A stretch of DNA of 39,019 bases from a virus (lineage: Duplodnaviria > Caudoviricetes), in the IMG/VR virus record IMGVR_UViG_3300037780_000117, positions 1-39,019 of that record; one strand, written 5' to 3'. Position 1 is the first letter of the stretch; each line of letters starts with the position of its first letter. A program made the position numbers and the translations under genes. Below the pieces are notes generated by a model, which was not told where the DNA came from, searched no databases, and saw only the letters and a program-made list of their open reading frames with translations. Shown here one piece after another: positions 15,342-23,800 of the stretch.

Positions 15342-15874
15342 GTGAACAGCACATTCAAAGCGTTGAACCGCCGGGGCATATCGGACTTGTCAGTGACGGA
15401 TTGGGCATGTGGGCCTTGTGGTCGCTATCTGCAGGAGACGACCCTCAAAGTGCCGTTCGCTACGTCCGCGCCGACATTCACACCGCCGAGATCGAGCGCC
15501 TAACCCGCGAGCGAGACGAGGCGCGGGCGCGGGCGGCGGGGGCGTATGAGGCAGCGGCACAAATCTGCGACGACGTGGGCGCCGAGGATGCGGCCCGCGT
15601 CATCCGCGGCGTGGTCAGGTCCATCGATGAAGATGCTCTTGTCGCCGCCGACGAAGACGCGATCGAGCGTGCGAAGCGGGAGGAACGGGAGGCGTGTGCG
15701 AGGGTGGTGGAGCGCTTCGCCGGTCACGCCGACCGCCAAGCCGAAGTGGACGACCCGATGAACAAAATTCTTTCCAAGTCCGATGCCCGGAGGCTGCGCA
15801 TCGTCGCCGATGCCATCCGCAAGATGTGGGGGCGCGACGAGAAGGCCGCCGAACCTAAGCCGCCGTCTGAGTGA
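15338..15874 (+). CDS. Hypothetical protein
   Basis: AAGGAG RBS; coiled-coil EIERLTRERDEA and EEREACA motifs common in phage early genes. Confidence 0.7.
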   Translation: MSEQHIQSVEPPGHIGLVSDGLGMWALWSLSAGDDPQSAVRYVRADIHTAEIERLTRERDEARARAAGAYEAAAQICDDVGAEDAARVIRGVVRSIDEDALVAADEDAIERAKREEREACARVVERFAGHADRQAEVDDPMNKILSKSDARRLRIVADAIRKMWGRDEKAAEPKPPSE

Positions 15875-17105
15875 ACCGCACGCGCGGCTTCTCCGGGGCG
15901 GGCGGCTGCTCCAGCGCCACGTCCAGCCGCTCCTTGAGCCCCCACCGATCCGAGACCACGGCCAGCCATTGCCGCGGCACGTCGAACGCGGCGCGGATGC
16001 CGTTGCCGAACTCGGAATAGCCGGGCACCGAGCCGTTGGCCAGGATGCCCGGCGGCTGCGCGCTGGTGTGATAGTGCCCGATGAGCTTGAGATATGGCGC
16101 CATGCCGGCCGAGCCGTATTGAAGCTGCACCTTGTTGCCGCCCCGAATGATCGGGAGCACCGGCCCGGCGAACCCCTGCCCGCCGCCGGTGCCCATCTTG
16201 TCGCCGTGCGTTACCAGGATCGGGCGGTTGTAGACTGGCAGAAGCGCATCGGGGCCGTCCGCGATCTGGATGCTCACGCGCTCGTCATCGGCGAAGTCCT
16301 TGGCCACCAGCCGAGCGATCATCGTGTCGTAGGAGAGCGCGCCGTATTTCTTGGCCGTGGGCTTCCGGGTGGTGCGGCCATGATTCCCCGGCACCGCCAT
16401 GACGTGCACCTGCCCGTATTCTTCGAGAAGCTGGCGCAGGCAGGCGACGTGCAGCGCCGCCGCACCTTCGACCTGCTCAAGGCTCGTGAGCGCGTTCGTC
16501 TCGCGGAGCTCGTCGTGGATGTCGCCGCTGATCTCGTCGCCGCCCATGGTGTAGAGCACGCCGTCCACGGTGGTGCCCGCCGTCCAGCGCCGGCCGATCT
16601 CGCAGGCCGCGTCCATGAACCGCTTGACGCGGCGGGCACAGACATCCGGATCGTAGCGGTTCCAGCCGTTGATCTCGGTAGGCTGGATCACCTCGCCGTA
16701 GTGCCGGTCGGAGTTGTGGACGATCAGCGTGGCGCGGCCGGGGCCGCCGGTGCGCGGCTTCCACGCCCATTCCGGCGCGCGGATCGTGATGCCGTCCAGC
16801 CCGCCGAGCTCAGACACCAGCCGCTGCATCTCGCCGATCTCGCGGGCCTGCTTCTGCGCGCGGCGGCGCCAGAACGCGGCGTCGTGCTGGTCGATCGGCT
16901 GGCGATCCGGCTGTGGCCTGGCAGCCTTCATCGCCTCGAACCCTGCGCGCACCAGCTCGGCGCGTAGCCGCTGCGCCGTGGCCGGATCGCAGCCGAACTC
17001 GGCGGCGACGGCCGAGGCGGTGCGCTTGCCCGCCCCGTCTGCGAGGGCCTGGGCCAGCTCCAGCTTTTCGGCTGCGGTGAGGTGGCGCCCTCTCACGCGG
17101 CCCAT
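15855..17105 (-). CDS. Calcineurin-like metallophosphoesterase with N-terminal HTH
   Basis: SDRHYGE, GGDEISGDIH, VPGNHG, THGD, GHYH motifs; N-terminal SAVAAEFGCD. Confidence 0.8.
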   Translation of the reverse strand: MGRVRGRHLTAAEKLELAQALADGAGKRTASAVAAEFGCDPATAQRLRAELVRAGFEAMKAARPQPDRQPIDQHDAAFWRRRAQKQAREIGEMQRLVSELGGLDGITIRAPEWAWKPRTGGPGRATLIVHNSDRHYGEVIQPTEINGWNRYDPDVCARRVKRFMDAACEIGRRWTAGTTVDGVLYTMGGDEISGDIHDELRETNALTSLEQVEGAAALHVACLRQLLEEYGQVHVMAVPGNHGRTTRKPTAKKYGALSYDTMIARLVAKDFADDERVSIQIADGPDALLPVYNRPILVTHGDKMGTGGGQGFAGPVLPIIRGGNKVQLQYGSAGMAPYLKLIGHYHTSAQPPGILANGSVPGYSEFGNGIRAAFDVPRQWLAVVSDRWGLKERLDVALEQPPAPEKPRVRFTQTAA

Positions 17106-17106
17106 G

Positions 17107-17388
17107 TCACAGCGCCTCGCCGCGCACCGGCTGATACCACGCCCAGCCGTCGCCGCTTGCCATGACGCACGACACGCCGGTCGGCGTCTCGAACACCAGC
17201 GTCCATGTGCCGGTGTCGGGGTTTGCCCAGGTCTGCACCTGCGCGCCGTTGGGCGCGGGCCCGGTGCTGACCAGGCTCTGCCCGAACTGCGAGTCGAGGA
17301 TGTTGGCGAGGTCGGCACGCTCGACGCAGACTTGCGCGGATGCGGCCACGGGCATACACACCGCGAGCGCGGCGGCTAGTCGTCTCAT
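17107..17388 (-). CDS. Small secreted two-Cys protein
   Basis: Signal peptide ending ASA-QV; C..GTWTLV..GVSCVMASG; AGGAG RBS. Confidence 0.75.
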   Translation of the reverse strand: MRRLAAALAVCMPVAASAQVCVERADLANILDSQFGQSLVSTGPAPNGAQVQTWANPDTGTWTLVFETPTGVSCVMASGDGWAWYQPVRGEAL

Positions 17389-17441
17389 AGCAAAATCTCC
17401 TGAGAATGAGCGGCGAGGGGTGGCAGCCCCGTGCCGCCGCG

Positions 17442-17702
17442 TTATTCGCGCGGCTCACCCATCGACATGGCAAGCCGCTGTTGCTCCCGCTGCGCTGTCA
17501 CGGCCTGCTGTAGCTGCCACGTCAGCACGCGGATCAGGTCGGCCTGCGCCTCGATGCCCATGGCCACTTGTTTGGCCATTTGATCGGAGTGCGCCCAGCG
17601 GTCGCGTGGCAAGCCCTTGCGCCGCCTCCGAGCGTATTCGGTGGCCGCTTCGATGTCCGCTTTGTGCGTCTCCATGATGTGCAGAAAGTCGTCCATCGTC
17701 AT
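17442..17702 (-). CDS. Hypothetical protein
   Basis: GAGG RBS; ATGA coupling. Confidence 0.6.
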   Translation of the reverse strand: MTMDDFLHIMETHKADIEAATEYARRRRKGLPRDRWAHSDQMAKQVAMGIEAQADLIRVLTWQLQQAVTAQREQQRLAMSMGEPRE

Positions 17703-18370
17703 AGGTTCATGGCCTCTTGCTTTGGTTGCGGCGGCGGTGCCAGATCAAGGCGCGGCTGCGCCATTTCCTTTCGGATGCGCTCGCAGGCGATGTCGAAATA
17801 GTCGGGGTCCAACTCGATGCCGATGAACTTGCGGCCCTCTCGGACGCAGGCAACGCCCGTGGTGCCGGAGCCCATGAAGGGGTCTAGGATCGTCTCGGCG
17901 TCGGGCAGGAAGCCGAGGCACCATTGCATGAGCGCGATGGGCTTTTGGGTGGGGTGTTGCTTGCCGCCGTCCATGTTCATCGGTCGAAAAACGAAACGGC
18001 GGGCAACCATGTCGAGATTGGTCCACGCCATCTCGAAGTCCGCAAAATCGCGTCCGGGGTTGTTTTTGCCCCAAACCAACGGGGCACGGGTCGGCGGGAG
18101 GTCAAAATAGTTGCCGCCCCAAACGATCATCGGCGTCTCTTCGCGGCGCCAAGCGTGGATCAGCGCGGCGGGCGGCGGGGCGTTGTCCCAATCTTTGCCA
18201 CCCATGCCACGCGATACGGCAAGGCGGTTCGATTTCGTTACACCAATCCCATACGGCGGGTCCGTCACCACGGCGTCAACGGCACCGAGCGTCGGCAGCA
18301 CCTCAAGGCAATCGCCCTGATAGAGCACATGCGGCCCGATTTCGACGCGCCGCACCCATGGTTCCGTCAT
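17699..18370 (-). CDS. DNA N4/N6 methyltransferase (beta class)
   Basis: GDCLEVL, VTDPPYG, HPTQKP, LDPFMGSGTTG. Confidence 0.93.
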   Translation of the reverse strand: MTEPWVRRVEIGPHVLYQGDCLEVLPTLGAVDAVVTDPPYGIGVTKSNRLAVSRGMGGKDWDNAPPPAALIHAWRREETPMIVWGGNYFDLPPTRAPLVWGKNNPGRDFADFEMAWTNLDMVARRFVFRPMNMDGGKQHPTQKPIALMQWCLGFLPDAETILDPFMGSGTTGVACVREGRKFIGIELDPDYFDIACERIRKEMAQPRLDLAPPPQPKQEAMNL

Positions 18371-18828
18371 CGCTTCCCCCTCACTCTCGCCCACCACACG
18401 CGGAGCCTGACCTCCAGCCAGTGAAACCGCCGCATGTTCGAGAAGATCGGCTGGGCGGTCCTGCCGAGCCGCCAGTCTTCGCTTGGCGAACGGTTGATGT
18501 TGCAGAGCGTCAGGCCGCGATACCGCAGGCGCGCGTGGTTCCGCCGCCGCCCGTCATGGGCGACGAAAAGGATTTCCACCACCCCGGAGCGCAGGGCCGC
18601 GCGCAACTCGCGCTCGCCGCCGACCATCTCCCGCGCCAGCCCGAGCGCGTAGCCGTCGCAGTCGTCGCGGATCGCCATGCCGGGCACACGCTTCGGAATG
18701 CCCCACACCTCGGCATAGCCGCCTGTCACCTTGTCGGGCGTCCAAACGAAGCCCTCGGCCCACGCCTTCGCGATGCCGATCTCGGCAGGCGTCCAGACAT
18801 CGCGGGCGGCGGAGAAGTTGAAGGTCAT
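18367..18828 (-). CDS. Hypothetical protein
   Basis: Coupled to both neighbours (TGATG, ATGA). Confidence 0.55.
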   Translation of the reverse strand: MTFNFSAARDVWTPAEIGIAKAWAEGFVWTPDKVTGGYAEVWGIPKRVPGMAIRDDCDGYALGLAREMVGGERELRAALRSGVVEILFVAHDGRRRNHARLRYRGLTLCNINRSPSEDWRLGRTAQPIFSNMRRFHWLEVRLRVWWARVRGKR

Positions 18829-20069
18829 CAGCCGATGTCCGGGCCGCGGTTCACAAGCTGATAGCTGGTGCCGCCGTCTGTGGTCACAATCTCGAACGCC
18901 GCCTTGCGCTGGTAGGCGGGTGGCACGATCACTGGCGCCTCAAGCGCCGCAGGAAAGTTGATCGTGGGCGTGCGGGCGAGGCTGTATTGATACACCGTAT
19001 CTGTGGTTTGGCCCACCACCCAGAAAAGCGTCCCATCGGGATGAATGAAAAGCCCATGCGGGTTAATATCTTGCGAGCTCACGGACACGGCGCCGACATG
19101 TGTCGCCGTCGAAATGTTCCATGCGGTGCCGAGTGTGAACTTGTTAACCTCTCGGCCGTCAGTGCCGACAATAAACATTTCAGTGCCATCAGGCCGAAAA
19201 TGCACTTCTTCGGGGTCGCCTTCTTGTAAAGATACAGAGAGCGTCCGAACGAATGACGCGGTGCTGACGTTCCAAGCGGTGCTCAAATCGTATTCGTGCA
19301 CGTCGCTGCCGCCGGTAATGTACATTTTGGTGCCGTCAGGTCTGAAAAATAGCCCGGACGGCGCAGTGCTTTGGCTGCTCACGCTGAAATTGCGGACGTA
19401 GCTGGCGCTGGAAACGTCCCATGCCGTCGAGAGCGAATACTCGTTCACGTCGTCGCCCGAAGATCCGACGATATACATCGCCGTGCCATCGGCCTTGAAT
19501 GCCAAGCCCGTGGGAAGGCTTTCTTGTGAAGAAACTGAAAACGAATGAACAAACGACGCCGTAGATATGTCCCATTTTACGGACAGGTCGTATTGATTCA
19601 CATCGTCTCCCCCACCGCCTGCGATATACATCTTTGCGCCGTCGTCTCCGAAAACAACATCGGTGGGCTGCAATTCCTCAGACGCAATGCTGAGACTCAC
19701 GCCGCTATATGCCGCCACGCCAAAATTCCAGCCATCGTCCCAATCGTGCTTGATAATCACGGTGGCGCGGTCCACCGTGTCGGGATTGGAAAACACGAAA
19801 TCCGTGGTCTGCTGCGATAGCGTGATCGTGAAAATGTCACCGACGCTGAAATCGACGGTCTGTGTCGCGCCGGTCAGGTTGGCGGTGGTGAGCGAGCCAC
19901 TCGCCTCGCTTTCCTTCGCCATCGCCTCATACGTCCCGGCCCCGGTGCCCACGGCGAGGCGGTCTTCGTCGGTGATGAGATACGGCTCGCCCGCCGCCAA
20001 GCCGTTTGAACCGGCGGCGCTGTCGATCTCGGCGCGGGTGCCGCGCTTGACGCGGAGAGGGGTCGCCAT
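18828..20069 (-). CDS. Fibre tip/receptor-binding protein: Mtd_N-like N-terminus + five-repeat beta-propeller
   Basis: LRVKRGT..LAAGEPYLITDEDRLAVGTG; five ~51-aa repeats with F.PDGT.MY.....YDLSTAW. Confidence 0.75.
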   Translation of the reverse strand: MATPLRVKRGTRAEIDSAAGSNGLAAGEPYLITDEDRLAVGTGAGTYEAMAKESEASGSLTTANLTGATQTVDFSVGDIFTITLSQQTTDFVFSNPDTVDRATVIIKHDWDDGWNFGVAAYSGVSLSIASEELQPTDVVFGDDGAKMYIAGGGGDDVNQYDLSVKWDISTASFVHSFSVSSQESLPTGLAFKADGTAMYIVGSSGDDVNEYSLSTAWDVSSASYVRNFSVSSQSTAPSGLFFRPDGTKMYITGGSDVHEYDLSTAWNVSTASFVRTLSVSLQEGDPEEVHFRPDGTEMFIVGTDGREVNKFTLGTAWNISTATHVGAVSVSSQDINPHGLFIHPDGTLFWVVGQTTDTVYQYSLARTPTINFPAALEAPVIVPPAYQRKAAFEIVTTDGGTSYQLVNRGPDIG

Positions 20070-20072
20070 GGC

Positions 20073-21206
20073 TCAGAACGTCCCCCCGTCCAGCGTCACG
20101 CCCGAGATCGTGCCGCCGGTGATGTTGACGCTGTTCGCGGCTTGGGTGGCGATGCTGCCGAGGCCCAGTGTGCCGCGTGCGGTGGCCGCGTCGGCGTCGT
20201 CCAACAGGGTCCGCGCGAAGGCGGTAAAGCCCGTGGTGGCGAAGCTGTCGGCGCCGTCCGCGTAGATCACCTCATTCGCCGCGACCGTCACGCCCGCCAG
20301 CGCGGTCAGCGTGGCGTCGAGGCCCTGCGCATCGGTGATGCCATAGCCCGCCAGCGTGGTCGGGTTTGTGCCCGCGGTGACGCGCCCGTAGGTGTCCACC
20401 GTCACGCTGCGATAGGTGTCGGGGCTTACCGCCGTGGTGGCAAGGTCGATGCCCGAGGCGCCCACCGTGATCCGGCCGGAGTCGACGGTCTGCACCGAGA
20501 ACTCCGAAGAACTGAGAACAAGCCCGTCGCCGGCGGTGTAGGTCGTGCCGCCGCCGAACACCGAAAAGGTCAGCGACGTGGTATCGAGCGTGATCGCGCC
20601 CGTGGTGGTCAGGACGAACTGCTTGCCGCCGCCGGCCGTGCCTTCCTCCACGAAGGTGAGCGCGCCGCTGGAAACGTCCGCATCGCTGTCGAAATCGCTG
20701 GCCCGCGGCCAGGACGAGGCGTCGGCGATGTAGATGCCGTTGGCGCTGCCCGTGGTCTGATTTTTCACGAGCACCCGGTCGCCCGCCACCACCGACACGC
20801 CGTCGATGGTCTGCTCGCCACTGAGAGTGATGTTGGCCGTGGTCGCCGCCCGGCAGGATGCCTTGAAGTCCAGCCCCGCGCTGATCCCGTCCACATAGGC
20901 TTTCGTCGCCGCGTCGGAATTGGCGGTCGGCGTGCCCACGTTGGTGATCCGATAGCCGTCGAAGCTGATGTTGCCCACCGGCACCGTCAGGTCGGAGAGG
21001 CTGTGGGTGTGATCCGCGTCGGCCTTGGCCGAGCCGCCGAGCGCGACAACTGACGTGGCATCGCCCTCGCCGTCGTCGCCATACCCGCCGTAGAGAATGC
21101 CCTCGTCGGGGTCGCCGCCCATGTTCCAAGCCAGCTCGGCGGTTTTCAGCGCGCTCGGCGCTCCCGCCGCGCCGGTCACGCGGCGCTTGATCCGAATATC
21201 TGCCAT
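20073..21206 (-). CDS. Fibre/decoration protein ending in DGGTF
   Basis: IRIKRR..APSALKTAELAW; DAATKAYVD; KASCRAATTANITLSG..GDRVLVKNQ..NGIY; PTTLAGYGITDA. Confidence 0.78.
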   Translation of the reverse strand: MADIRIKRRVTGAAGAPSALKTAELAWNMGGDPDEGILYGGYGDDGEGDATSVVALGGSAKADADHTHSLSDLTVPVGNISFDGYRITNVGTPTANSDAATKAYVDGISAGLDFKASCRAATTANITLSGEQTIDGVSVVAGDRVLVKNQTTGSANGIYIADASSWPRASDFDSDADVSSGALTFVEEGTAGGGKQFVLTTTGAITLDTTSLTFSVFGGGTTYTAGDGLVLSSSEFSVQTVDSGRITVGASGIDLATTAVSPDTYRSVTVDTYGRVTAGTNPTTLAGYGITDAQGLDATLTALAGVTVAANEVIYADGADSFATTGFTAFARTLLDDADAATARGTLGLGSIATQAANSVNITGGTISGVTLDGGTF

Positions 21207-21217
21207 ATTTCAATCCT

Positions 21218-21406
21218 CTAGAAGTTGCCGCCGTCCACGACTGTGCCAAGATCGCCCGCGTCACCCGGCGGGCCTTGCGGGCCGGGCACGCCGCCCAGCT
21301 CCACCACCTGCACGCCGGTTGCGATCTCCACCGCCACCCCGGCGGCTGTCTCCACGATGATCGCGCCGTCGCCGGTCACGATCTCGATTTCCTGCACCCC
21401 GCTCAT
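21218..21406 (-). CDS. Small collagen-like linker protein ending in DGGNF
   Basis: GVPGPQGPPGDAGD followed by VVDGGNF. Confidence 0.7.
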   Translation of the reverse strand: MSGVQEIEIVTGDGAIIVETAAGVAVEIATGVQVVELGGVPGPQGPPGDAGDLGTVVDGGNF

Positions 21407-21741
21407 GCGAGCCCCCGCGTAATCGGGTCGTCCACCGGGATCGTGAGCCGGAAGCCCATGTGGGTGTCGGGGTCGGTGTCGGTGCGCACCATGTCGAACA
21501 CCACCGTGCCCTCGGCCATGGTGGCGGTCTCGGCTGCGGGGATCTCGATATCGACGTGCTCCGCGTCCACCCGCGTGATCTCGCCGTCGGCGGTGGTGAG
21601 CGTGGCGAGGATGTCCGCTGCGTCCTCGGTGGCGCGCACCTGCCCGGTGAAGGTCGCGCCCTCGTCCACCGCGAGCTTGAGCCGCAGGCGATAGGTGTAG
21701 CCGCGAAGGATAATCGGGCCGTTACGGCGATAAACGGTCAT
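21403..21741 (-). CDS. Putative fibre adaptor (beta-sandwich)
   Basis: ILRGYTY..GQVRAT..LATLTT..VFDM pattern typical of genes preceding collagen fibres. Confidence 0.65.
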   Translation of the reverse strand: MTVYRRNGPIILRGYTYRLRLKLAVDEGATFTGQVRATEDAADILATLTTADGEITRVDAEHVDIEIPAAETATMAEGTVVFDMVRTDTDPDTHMGFRLTIPVDDPITRGLA

Positions 21742-21961
21742 CGCATTCGCGCTCCCATGTCAGGTTCGTTTGAAAGTCGCGGCGCAGGTTCCACGGCGCG
21801 TGCTCGGCCCGCCAGTCGATCTCGGCCTGCGAGAAGCGGCGGGGCTCTTCCACGTCGCAGAACTCCACCCCGGCGTAGATCACCGTGGGCTCACGGGCGC
21901 AGCCAGCCAGGAGGCACGCGGCGCAGATCGTCGCTGTCCATATCGTCCACTGTGCGGTCAC
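21722..21961 (-). CDS. o-spanin (Rz1-like lipoprotein)
   Basis: Lipobox LLAGC; overlaps the 3' end of the i-spanin in another frame; GTG start inferred. Confidence 0.7.
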   Translation of the reverse strand: MTAQWTIWTATICAACLLAGCAREPTVIYAGVEFCDVEEPRRFSQAEIDWRAEHAPWNLRRDFQTNLTWERECDDRLSP

Positions 21962-22133
21962 TCTGCCGGTCCCTTTCGATAGCGCCGAGCCGCCCGGTGC
22001 AGCTCGCCAATTCTGCCCTGAGCGCCGCAGCCTCCGCGCGCAGGGCGGCCGTCTCGCGGGCCTGCCACGCGAAGCCCCCGGCGAAGGCAATCGCCGCGCC
22101 GAGCGCCACTGAGGCCGCCGTGCGCCAGATCAT
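21891..22133 (-). CDS. i-spanin (Rz-like)
   Basis: N-terminal TM followed by coiled coil; follows the endolysin with an ATGA overlap. Confidence 0.72.
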   Translation of the reverse strand: MIWRTAASVALGAAIAFAGGFAWQARETAALRAEAAALRAELASCTGRLGAIERDRQSDRTVDDMDSDDLRRVPPGWLRP

Positions 22134-22933
22134 GTGCGGAGCGTCCGGAGCATCACCACCGCGAGCACCAGCGCGCCAGCGACGATGCACGCGGCCACCG
22201 CATACTGAATCGCCTCGCTGTCCGTCGCGACGAGCGCCGTCGCGAGGCCGCCCGCGCCGGTAAGCGAGCCGAGCGCGCTCTTGTTCGTGGCAAGGTCGCG
22301 CAGCACCGCGCTTGCGCGTTCCTCGCCCGGCGGGGCCTTGGCCGTGGCGTCTGCGCCGGGGCGCGGGTCGGGGATGCCCCCGACGCCTTGCGCGATCCAC
22401 ACCGCCCTGTCGATCACGCCCGTGTCATTGAACTGCACCCCGGCGCGCATCCCCATCACGCGGCGCGTCCAGCCCTTGCCGAAGGTGGGCCAGTGACGGA
22501 GGCGGCGCAGGAACGCCATGCGGCGTGCGCACAGGCTTTCGATCAATGCGGGCACGTCGCGGCCCGCCAGCGCGCCGAGGGTTTGCTGGCCGATGATGCC
22601 GTCTGCCGTGACGCCAAGCTCGCGCTGGAGGTCGCGGGCGGCGCGGGCCGGGCCGCTGTTCACGGCGTAGTCGAACACCGCGTAGTCGAGCCCTGCGGGC
22701 AGATCGTCGCCGCGCACTGCGTTCCAGTATTGGCCCCGGTAGATCGTCGCCACCTCGTCAGATGTGATGTTGGCGACGGGGCGGTTCGGTGCGCCCTTGG
22801 CGCGCAGGTAGCCGGTGAAGGTCGCCTGCGTCACGCCCATGTTTGTCGCGCCGCCGGGGTCTTCGGGGTGGTGGACGTAGCCGCCCTCGTGCGCGAGCAC
22901 CCACGGCATCACGCGTTCGAATGTCTCTCGCAT
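22130..22933 (-). CDS. Endolysin, GH108 family with PG-binding region and C-terminal hydrophobic helices
   Basis: HEGGYVHHPEDPGGATNMGVT, FDYAVNSG, DGIIG, FGKGWTRR. Confidence 0.92.
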   Translation of the reverse strand: MRETFERVMPWVLAHEGGYVHHPEDPGGATNMGVTQATFTGYLRAKGAPNRPVANITSDEVATIYRGQYWNAVRGDDLPAGLDYAVFDYAVNSGPARAARDLQRELGVTADGIIGQQTLGALAGRDVPALIESLCARRMAFLRRLRHWPTFGKGWTRRVMGMRAGVQFNDTGVIDRAVWIAQGVGGIPDPRPGADATAKAPPGEERASAVLRDLATNKSALGSLTGAGGLATALVATDSEAIQYAVAACIVAGALVLAVVMLRTLRT

Positions 22934-22942
22934 CGGTGTCTC

Positions 22943-23260
22943 CTAAAGCGCCTCGCCGGTGGTGATCCGAATTGCAATCGCCACGATCACGCCGCCTGCG
23001 GCCATCGCGCCCATGGCGATGGTGAAGATGGTTCCGATCCAGCCGCGTAGCGAATTGGCGTCCTCGATCCGGGTCTTCGCCGTTGCCCGGTCTTCGGCCT
23101 GCCCGAGCGCGTTGCTCTCCACCACGCTCGGCAGCCGCTGAAGGTGCTTCATGTCCGTTTCGATCCGGGCCATCCGGTCGGCGAGCTTGGCATCAACAAG
23201 CGATTGCGTGTGCGCCTCGATTGCCGCGAGCCGCTGCAAAATCCGGTGTTCGTCCGTCAT
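22943..23260 (-). CDS. Putative holin (C-terminal TM)
   Basis: Coiled coil + TM segment, directly upstream of the endolysin. Confidence 0.55.
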   Translation of the reverse strand: MTDEHRILQRLAAIEAHTQSLVDAKLADRMARIETDMKHLQRLPSVVESNALGQAEDRATAKTRIEDANSLRGWIGTIFTIAMGAMAAGGVIVAIAIRITTGEAL

Positions 23261-23305
23261 GGGCCGCTCCTGTGGTGTGTGGCGCGGCCCATGCCGCTTT
23301 CAGGC

Positions 23306-23800
23306 TCAGTCGTCCGGGTTTTCGTCGCCGTCGTTCGCGAAGCCGCCCGGCGCGCGGGGCGGGCTGTCCTCGCCGTTGTCGCCGTCGTTGTAGCCGCCGC
23401 CGCCGCTCGGGGGCTTCGGGGGCAGGCTGCTGCCGTCGTCGCCGTCGTAGGCACCGCCGGGGCCGGAGCCCACACCGCCGCCGGGGGCGCTGCTGTAGCC
23501 GGTCGCCGGGCCGGGATCGAACACGTCGCCGGGGCGCGGGTCGCCGGGCTTCCACTCGGGCGCGGCGGGCGCGGGCTCGCTGCCTTCGTCGCCGTCGTTC
23601 GCCAGCGCGGCGCGCACCGGGGCCGCCGGGGCGGGGTCGATCACCGCCGTGACGGTGGCGCGCGGCGTCGGTGCGGGGCTGGAAGCCGGGGCCACGGTGT
23701 CAGGCTCGGTGCCGACATTGGCGCCAAGGCCGGAAGGGGGCGAGCACGCCGCAAGCGCGCCCGCTGCGGCAAGCGCCGCGCAGGTCAGAAAAAGTCGCAT
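23306..23800 (-). CDS. Low-complexity Pro/Gly/Asp lipoprotein
   Basis: Lipobox LAAC; AGGAG RBS; four (N/Y)DGD motifs. Confidence 0.72.
   Translation of the reverse strand: MRLFLTCAALAAAGALAACSPPSGLGANVGTEPDTVAPASSPAPTPRATVTAVIDPAPAAPVRAALANDGDEGSEPAPAAPEWKPGDPRPGDVFDPGPATGYSSAPGGGVGSGPGGAYDGDDGSSLPPKPPSGGGGYNDGDNGEDSPPRAPGGFANDGDENPDD

What the first reader, a model, noticed from the sequence alone, without database searches (positions are those of the whole stretch)
18828..21741. Candidate daisy-chain fibre assembly: C-terminal DGG(N/T)F tags paired with Mtd_N-like N-terminal domains
Seen: four tightly linked genes outside the tail module, downstream of lysis. They encode a 112-aa adaptor, a 62-aa collagen linker ending VVDGGNF, a 377-aa fibre starting MADIRIKRR..ELA and ending TLDGGTF, and a 413-aa protein starting MATPLRVKRGT..GEP with a beta-propeller. 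Both DGGxF-ending proteins are followed by a gene with an (I/L)R(I/V)KR N-domain, and the last member has no DGGxF tail. Known: similar N-domains start the Bordetella phage Mtd and phage hyaluronidase fibres. Inference: DGGxF is a docking peptide captured by the next subunit's N-domain, building a swappable accessory head or collar fibre in gene order.
Basis: partly seen in the sequence, partly recalled or inferred. Interest (0 to 1): 0.8.

Follow-up and report, generated by a model that had tools for sequence, protein, structure and literature searches.

The report
Plug-and-socket joints chaining phage side fibres
Four neighbouring phage genes encode a ring-type anchor, a short linker, a fibre and a propeller-shaped tip that are predicted to snap together end to end through a short tail peptide and a matching cap, likely the same joint that links two parts of the phage T4 long tail fibre; binding and presence on the virus particle are untested.

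Summary
Observation confirmed. In IMG/VR, hydrophobic-DGGTF-stop occurs in about 5,000 stretches, against 18 for a scrambled motif and about 210 with a Lys codon in place of the stop. In gene pairs not used for selection, an Mtd_N-like gene follows 43/59 motif-ended genes but 39/452 others. A 3:3 model of the P4 cap with the P3 tail scores 0.91 against a best control of 0.05, with the interface on the last 11 residues. The 112-aa protein belongs to the T5 p132/LtfC collar family, so a ring-anchored side or collar fibre fits better than a head fibre; the attachment site is unknown. The four-gene cassette recurs with different tips. T4 gp37 starts with the same cap, gp36 ends in a DFG variant, and their binding is published. 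End-to-end joining is therefore known; I found the motif in none of 10 literature searches. This scan noted the pairing on at least nine other genomes. This locus adds the LtfC anchor and a hint of plug-socket specificity. No binding was measured.

The parts
21403..21741 (-). P1, 112 aa: LtfC/p132-family Ig-like beta-sandwich, inferred ring anchor
   Evidence: Pfam LtfC E 0.002, below cut-off; phrog_1084 E 1.3e-9; family profile A3 hits T5 p132 (7qg9) at E 1.2e-8; model pLDDT 85.6, VIA Z 8.1, rmsd 2.8 over 97 residues to 7qg9_R
21218..21406 (-). P2, 62 aa linker: beta-strand-like N-terminal part, six Gly-X-Y triplets, C-terminal plug DGGNF
   Evidence: sequence; same position and ending in L264 and L268-L271
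21221..21241 (-). plug 1 (VVDGGNF)
   Evidence: sequence; binding to P3 inferred, not modelled
20073..21206 (-). P3, 377 aa fibre: N-terminal socket, shaft, C-terminal plug DGGTF
   Evidence: shaft matches phrog_2647 head decoration (E 2e-42) and many tail-fibre PHROGs, and PDB 9nx3 and 23sh
21030..21206 (-). socket 1: Mtd_N-like domain of the KRR subtype (P3 residues 1-59)
   Evidence: 18.1 bits on a profile built without window sequences
20076..20108 (-). plug 2 (P3 residues 367-377, ending DGGTF): predicted interface
   Evidence: tail residues 26-36 of the 36-aa chain make the contacts in all three copies (plus residue 22)
18828..20069 (-). P4, 413 aa terminal subunit: socket plus beta-propeller, no C-terminal plug
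   Evidence: propeller DNA is 54-55% G+C against about 68% around it
19908..20069 (-). socket 2: Mtd_N-like domain (P4 residues 1-54)
   Evidence: Pfam Mtd_N E 3.8e-5; 26.3 bits; fold matches 1yu0 (Z 5.6) and 2c3f (Z 5.5); residues 1-11 and 14-18 contact the plug

Best explanation
The four genes likely build one accessory fibre in which each C-terminal DGGxF peptide is predicted to plug into the trimeric Mtd_N-like cap of the next protein. Inferred steps: P1 forms an LtfC-type ring on the virion and grips P2's N-terminal beta-strands by sheet augmentation, as T5-like LtfC does with LtfA. P2's short collagen trimerises and presents three DGGNF tails, which are caught by the P3 cap. The P3 trimer presents three DGGTF tails, which lie along the R-V-K-R strand of the P4 cap (modelled). 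P4 has no plug and ends the chain with a beta-propeller that probably binds a surface. Shown: the sequence anatomy, the cross-genome pairing and the homologies. Predicted: the P3-P4 interface. Inferred: the P1-P2 and P2-P3 contacts, the virion location and the tip's function.
For: Motif is stop-specific (about 5,000 versus 18 and about 210). Pairs not used for selection: 43/59 versus 39/452, odds ratio 28. Cap-first sample: 49/88 upstream genes end in GGx[FY]. Cap-bearing genes with their own plug are followed by another cap gene in 49/77 cases, those without in 5/80. Complex model: 0.91 versus best control 0.05, runs agree in at least 93% of contacts, partner pLDDT at least 94; this mark was reached by 116/157 solved and 2/215 mismatched pairs, counts that hold only roughly here. 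[quoted passage not shown] LtfC grips fibre N-terminal strands (PMC10713586 passages). The same four-gene cassette with other tips occurs in L268-L271.
Against: Adjacency is not strict. 42/113 DGGTF-ended genes have a non-cap next gene, 39/88 cap genes lack a strict upstream motif, and the close relative L264 has a 100-aa gene between the P3 and P4 homologues. Loci are related, so the p-values are inflated. The cap and LtfC profiles were partly trained on these loci. The complex controls were unrelated proteins, not motif mutants, and a pass could come from memory of a similar solved complex. In 6/62 middle links the upstream and own plug 5-mers are identical, so the motif alone cannot fix the order everywhere. 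BPP-1 Mtd scores only 1.3 bits on my cap profile. There are no virion data.
Confidence: 0.8

Rival explanations
1. The same joint forms, but not strictly in gene order: P3 also plugs into P3 and makes a variable-length chain capped by P4, like the bead-chain neck fibre of phage A-1(L).
For: P3 carries both a socket and a plug. A-1(L) gp81 repeats about 14 times between gp82 and gp80 (PMC10966104 section 8). Plug 5-mers are identical in 6/62 middle links.
Against: KRR-type sockets like P3's follow GG[N/H/F/A] tails in 17/17 cases and in 0/129 T/S-tail pairs (also 5/5), whereas P3's own plug is GGT. A-1(L) gp80-82 have neither the cap nor the motif.
Confidence: 0.1
2. DGGxF is a self-capping or trimer-nucleating end motif, and the cap is only a trimerisation domain. 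Their adjacency reflects shared ancestry of fibre cassettes, with no peptide capture.
For: The cap's best fold match is the collagen XV trimerisation domain (Z 6.3). Many pairs are orthologous cassettes.
Against: The predicted interface falls on the motif. Genes without a plug are rarely followed by a cap gene (5/80). The pairing holds in unrelated contexts, including T-even gp36-gp37.
Confidence: 0.07
3. The plugs are bound by another factor, such as a chaperone or the short coiled-coil protein, and P3 and P4 attach independently to the virion.
For: 18 of 43 listed non-cap next genes were flagged as short coiled-coil-like by a crude pattern, one of them wrongly.
Against: The four genes here are contiguous, with no such gene among them. 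In several loci the coiled-coil gene merely sits between the plug gene and a cap gene (one search list).
Confidence: 0.03

Closest known systems
Phage T4 long tail fibre, gp36-gp37 joint
   Same: gp37 begins with the same cap (47.8 bits) and gp36 ends in a D-F-G variant. Trimer-to-trimer end joining is published (PMC3004832, passages seen).
   Different: Here the chain starts at an LtfC-type protein plus a 62-aa linker, has two successive joints, uses DGG instead of D[FY]G, and lies after the lysis genes of an HK97-type siphophage. No PDB chain matched gp36 or gp37(1-66) significantly. The 2026 T4 preprint lists a distal-rod map (EMD 57037) with no PDB code beside it in the passage seen.
T5/DT57C lateral fibre collar LtfC (p132) with LtfA/pb1
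   Same: P1's family matches p132 (E 1.2e-8; Z 8.1). LtfC holds fibre N-terminal beta-strands (PMC10713586, passages seen).
   Different: P2 is a 62-aa stand-alone linker with collagen and a plug rather than a long fibre. Ring size and position are not shown here.
Mtd_N (PF18454): Bordetella phage BPP-1 Mtd and streptococcal phage HylP caps
   Same: Same fold; Pfam hits in 20/59 aligned caps at E up to 0.1. [quoted passage not shown] Upstream Bbp9 has three D-x-G-x-hydrophobic stretches (seen by eye).
   Different: P4 is below Pfam's cut-off and P3 has no hit. The C-terminal domains are unrelated. I saw no reverse transcriptase among the ORFs scanned, but not all ORFs were scanned.
Chain-like fibres of A-1(L) (neck) and A1002/GP4/VP1 (rope)
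   Same: Multi-protein fibres; the A-1(L) genes also lie away from the structural module (PMC10966104 passages and section 8; PMC13730344 abstract and passages).
   Different: Different modules: A-1(L) gp80-82 have no cap and no motif; A1002 uses dimers docked on a rope protein.

Membership tests
Mtd_N (PF18454) | Pfam score at or above the gathering cut-off of 26.3 bits | tested here: not met
   P4(1-60) 23.9 bits; P3 no hit
Mtd_N (PF18454) | Mtd/HylP N-terminal fold at the protein N-terminus | tested here: met
   P4 model: 1yu0 Z 5.6, rmsd 3.4, 52 aligned; 2c3f Z 5.5, rmsd 3.0, 56 aligned. HylP and Mtd fill Foldseek ranks 1-8, none at E below 0.001. The Z values are modest.
Mtd_N (PF18454) | Homotrimer | tested here: inconclusive
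   Three copies were imposed (pLDDT 94); trimer formation was not scored
T4 gp36-gp37 type joint | Downstream protein starts with the gp37-like cap | tested here: met
   One profile scores gp37 47.8, P4 26.3 and P3 18.1 bits
T4 gp36-gp37 type joint | Upstream protein ends in hydrophobic-D-x-G-x-aromatic | tested here: met
   P2 and P3; T4 and 6 of 7 relatives, one ending in V
T4 gp36-gp37 type joint | Measured trimer-to-trimer binding in the virion | not testable with these tools
   Prediction only
LtfC/p132 collar protein (PF23926) | Sequence and fold homology to p132 | tested here: inconclusive
   P1 alone: 19.1 bits against a cut-off of 27. Family profile: E 1.2e-8. Fold Z 8.1, tied with other Ig folds.
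LtfC/p132 collar protein (PF23926) | Dodecameric ring around the tail-tip protein that grips fibre strands | not tested
   The one complex job went to P3-P4
A-1(L) bead-chain neck fibre | Homology of subunits to gp82/gp81/gp80 | tested here: not met
   Cap and LtfC profiles give at most 3.3 bits on gp80-82, and there is no terminal motif

The most novel reading that the evidence does not exclude
Hydrophobic-D-x-G-x-aromatic plugs and Mtd_N-type sockets are a general, partly orthogonal connector code of phage fibres. GGN-type plugs select KRR sockets and GGT plugs select others, which fixes subunit order. The LtfC-linker-fibre-tip cassette is a mobile collar fibre that occupies the gene position of fibritin, before gene 13, in aquatic T4-like phages. 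The same code would explain the T4 gp36-gp37 joint and Mtd attachment.
Probability: 0.35. Interest if true: 0.8.

Novelty: new variant of a known kind. Interest (0 to 1): 0.62.

Why it matters
It gives a residue-level, testable answer to how T4 gp36 holds gp37 and how Mtd-type adhesins attach to fibres. It lets fibre architecture be read from gene ends in thousands of uncultured phages. It also points to a very small natural trimer-to-trimer connector (about 10 plus about 50 residues). The principle of end-to-end joining is not new, and this scan has already noted the pairing several times.

Tried and rejected
PDB sequence searches found no solved plug-socket complex with the P4 cap, the cap profile A1, the tail profile A2, T4 gp37(1-66), T4 gp36 or the P4 body. 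The cap profile also missed Mtd and HylP, so these searches are insensitive. Ten literature searches showed no description of the motif. One search was swamped by mtDNA papers, one search listed 40 of 165 papers (none on phage fibres by title), subscription journals are mostly missing, and no supplements were read. A1002 rope fibres and A-1(L) bead chains were rejected as the same family. PMC13252515, PMC12143355 and 10.64898/2026.05.12.724579 (passages) did not describe the joint; for PMC13419713 only 1,865 characters were held. The best cultured-phage hits to the P3 shaft that I opened (PSS2, X1) have no terminal plugs, so the shaft domain is not tied to the joint. 'Head decoration' from phrog_2647 covers only the shaft (residues 67-263) and was not taken as the location. 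No sigma-70 promoter was found in 17000-23500, and both terminator-like hits are on the opposite strand. No RNA holder was listed. The HylP upstream gene was not examined. The P1-P2 and P2-P3 complexes and motif-mutant controls were not modelled.

Full report
Setting. The window is a whole 39,019-bp contig of an HK97-type siphophage with terminase, portal, protease, capsid, head-tail connectors and tape measure. Its closest cultured capsids are from Rhizobium, Sinorhizobium and Labrenzia phages at 47-53% identity. Within the contig, DGGx[FY] occurs only at the ends of P2 and P3, and the N-terminal cap only in P3 and P4.

The motif is a C-terminal signal. An exact scan of IMG/VR for hydrophobic-DGGTF followed by TAA gave an estimated 5,000 stretches (extrapolated from 2 of 64 parts). 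A scrambled order gave 18 in the full collection, none followed by a cap gene. The same motif followed by AAA gave about 210.

Pairing across genomes. One search printed 124 matches. After duplicates and matches without a called next gene within 300 nt were dropped, 71 of 113 were followed by a cap gene. That count is partly circular, because profile A1 holds 57 caps from these loci. In the reverse sample, selected on a cap-internal pattern (120 matches, 91 evaluable, 88 profile-positive), 49 of 88 upstream genes end in GGx[FY]. Among neighbouring pairs not used for selection, 43 of 59 motif-ended genes and 39 of 452 others precede a cap gene (odds ratio 28). Many of the 39 end in variants such as DAGSF or DGGNW. 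After reducing all 768 pairs, selected ones included, to 415 at 45% identity, the figures are 34 of 71 and 17 of 344. Cap-bearing genes with their own plug are followed by another cap gene in 49 of 77 cases, those without in 5 of 80: the chain stops where the plug is missing, as at P4. Only one weak internal cap hit was seen. Against strict order: 42 of 113 and 39 of 88 are exceptions, and the close relative L264 has a 100-aa gene between its P3 and P4 homologues. The loci are related, so significance is overstated.

Structure. The P4 cap model (pLDDT 82) matches the human collagen XV trimerisation domain (Z 6.3), BPP-1 Mtd (Z 5.6) and streptococcal HylP1 (Z 5.5). Three P4(1-60) chains with three P3(342-377) chains scored 0.91, 0.91 and 0.89 against a best control of 0.05, with at least 93% contact agreement and partner pLDDT of at least 94. 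The mark was reached by 116 of 157 solved and 2 of 215 mismatched pairs, counts that hold only roughly here. The contacts are P4 residues 1-11 and 14-18 with P3 residues 367-377, and the most confident pairs join R6-V7-K8-R9 to D-G-G-T-F. This is a prediction with unrelated-protein controls only. That the basic residues neutralise the Asp and the C-terminus is my inference.

The anchor. P1 has a weak Pfam LtfC hit. A 29-row alignment of P1 with proteins found in the same position hits T5 p132 at E 1.2e-8. The fold search ties p132 (Z 8.1) with other Ig folds and also returns BppU-like baseplate domains and the R4C neck adaptor. In DT57C, twelve LtfC subunits ring the tail tip and take in fibre N-terminal beta-strands (PMC10713586, passages). 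P2's N-terminal half looks beta-strand-like, so I infer the same grip. In the sampled loci, 32 of 37 LtfC-like genes are followed by a short motif-ended linker and then a cap gene (the sample and profile are biased towards this). Of 37 genome loci picked by similarity to P3, four (L268-L271) carry the full cassette with the same DGGNF then DGGTF order and tips of 255 or 74 aa in place of the propeller; the rest show no cap gene. The propeller's DNA is 54-55% G+C against about 68% around it. In six T4-like loci the cassette lies just before the gp13 neck gene, where T4 has fibritin; fibritin binds gp13 (PMC12929629, passages). The attachment site is therefore open. My rough weights are tail-tip collar 45%, neck 40% and head 15%.

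Specificity. P3's socket is of a KRR subtype. All 17 KRR sockets follow GG[N/H/F/A] tails, and none occurs among 129 pairs with T/S tails; five further cassettes agree. P3's own plug is GGT, which could prevent self-polymerisation. Shared ancestry could give the same pattern, most of the T tails come from the selection, and 6 of 62 middle links have identical upstream and own 5-mers.

Known comparison. An earlier scan note (e1-9817250) pointed to T4, and I tested it. gp37(1-48) scores 47.8 bits on a cap profile built without window sequences, and gp36 ends QDFGYY. Of seven further records picked from a spread list, six T-even-type upstream genes end in D[FY]Gx[FYV] and cyanophage S-PRM1 does not. 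PMC3004832 states that trimeric gp36 binds the N-terminal region of gp37 (passage). PMC10743442 says the Mtd beta-prism presumably attaches to the tail fibre (passage). BPP-1 Bbp9, upstream of mtd, has three D-x-G-x-hydrophobic stretches (by eye; untested). A-1(L) and A1002 chains use other modules. The ten literature searches listed under Tried and rejected showed no paper naming the motif or its pairing, and no supplements were read.

Verdict. The feature is real. It works like the T4 gp36-gp37 joint, used twice in series on an LtfC-type anchor. It is a new variant of a known kind: the motif-level rule was not found in print, but this scan has already noted it on at least nine other genomes. 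Confidence in the plug-and-socket mechanism is 0.8; interest is 0.62.

Noticed in passing
L005:2523-2771, L020:2524-2703, L024:2310-2498 and similar loci: A short (55-90 aa) coiled-coil-like gene with no PHROG hit often follows the DGGTF-ended fibre in T4-like loci, sometimes sitting between the plug gene and the next cap gene. It may be a chaperone or an alternative cap.
   Followed up: partly
L031, L038, L057, L060, L074, L101 (genes after the match): Very short cap proteins (66-75 aa; 122 aa in L074) that consist of the socket plus a C-terminal hydrophobic helix ending in AxALG. In L041 and L057 a gene of about 110 aa follows. This may be a second docking system.
   Followed up: no
L005, L007, L020, L039, L060, L072: The LtfC-linker-fibre cassette sits directly before the gp13/gp14 neck genes, the position of fibritin (wac) in T4.
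   Followed up: partly
L001:4599-6125: BPP-1 Bbp9 carries three D-x-G-x-hydrophobic stretches, one at its C-terminus: candidate multiple docking sites for Mtd.
   Followed up: no
L264:7681-7983: A 100-aa gene of unknown function is inserted between the P3 and P4 homologues of the closest relative, which also has a different endolysin.
   Followed up: no
window 18978-19712: The P4 beta-propeller appears inserted inside a beta-sandwich-like tip domain (pattern recalled, not tested) and has lower G+C than its surroundings.
   Followed up: partly
L028, L051, L061, L100, L106, L113 and L046, L098: DGGTF also ends short genes before apparently non-structural T4-like genes, with no cap gene next; unexplained exceptions.
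   Followed up: no
window 15855-17318 and 17699-18397: An HTH-containing protein with phosphoesterase-like motifs (by eye) and an N6/N4 DNA methylase lie just downstream of the cassette in the same orientation.
   Followed up: no
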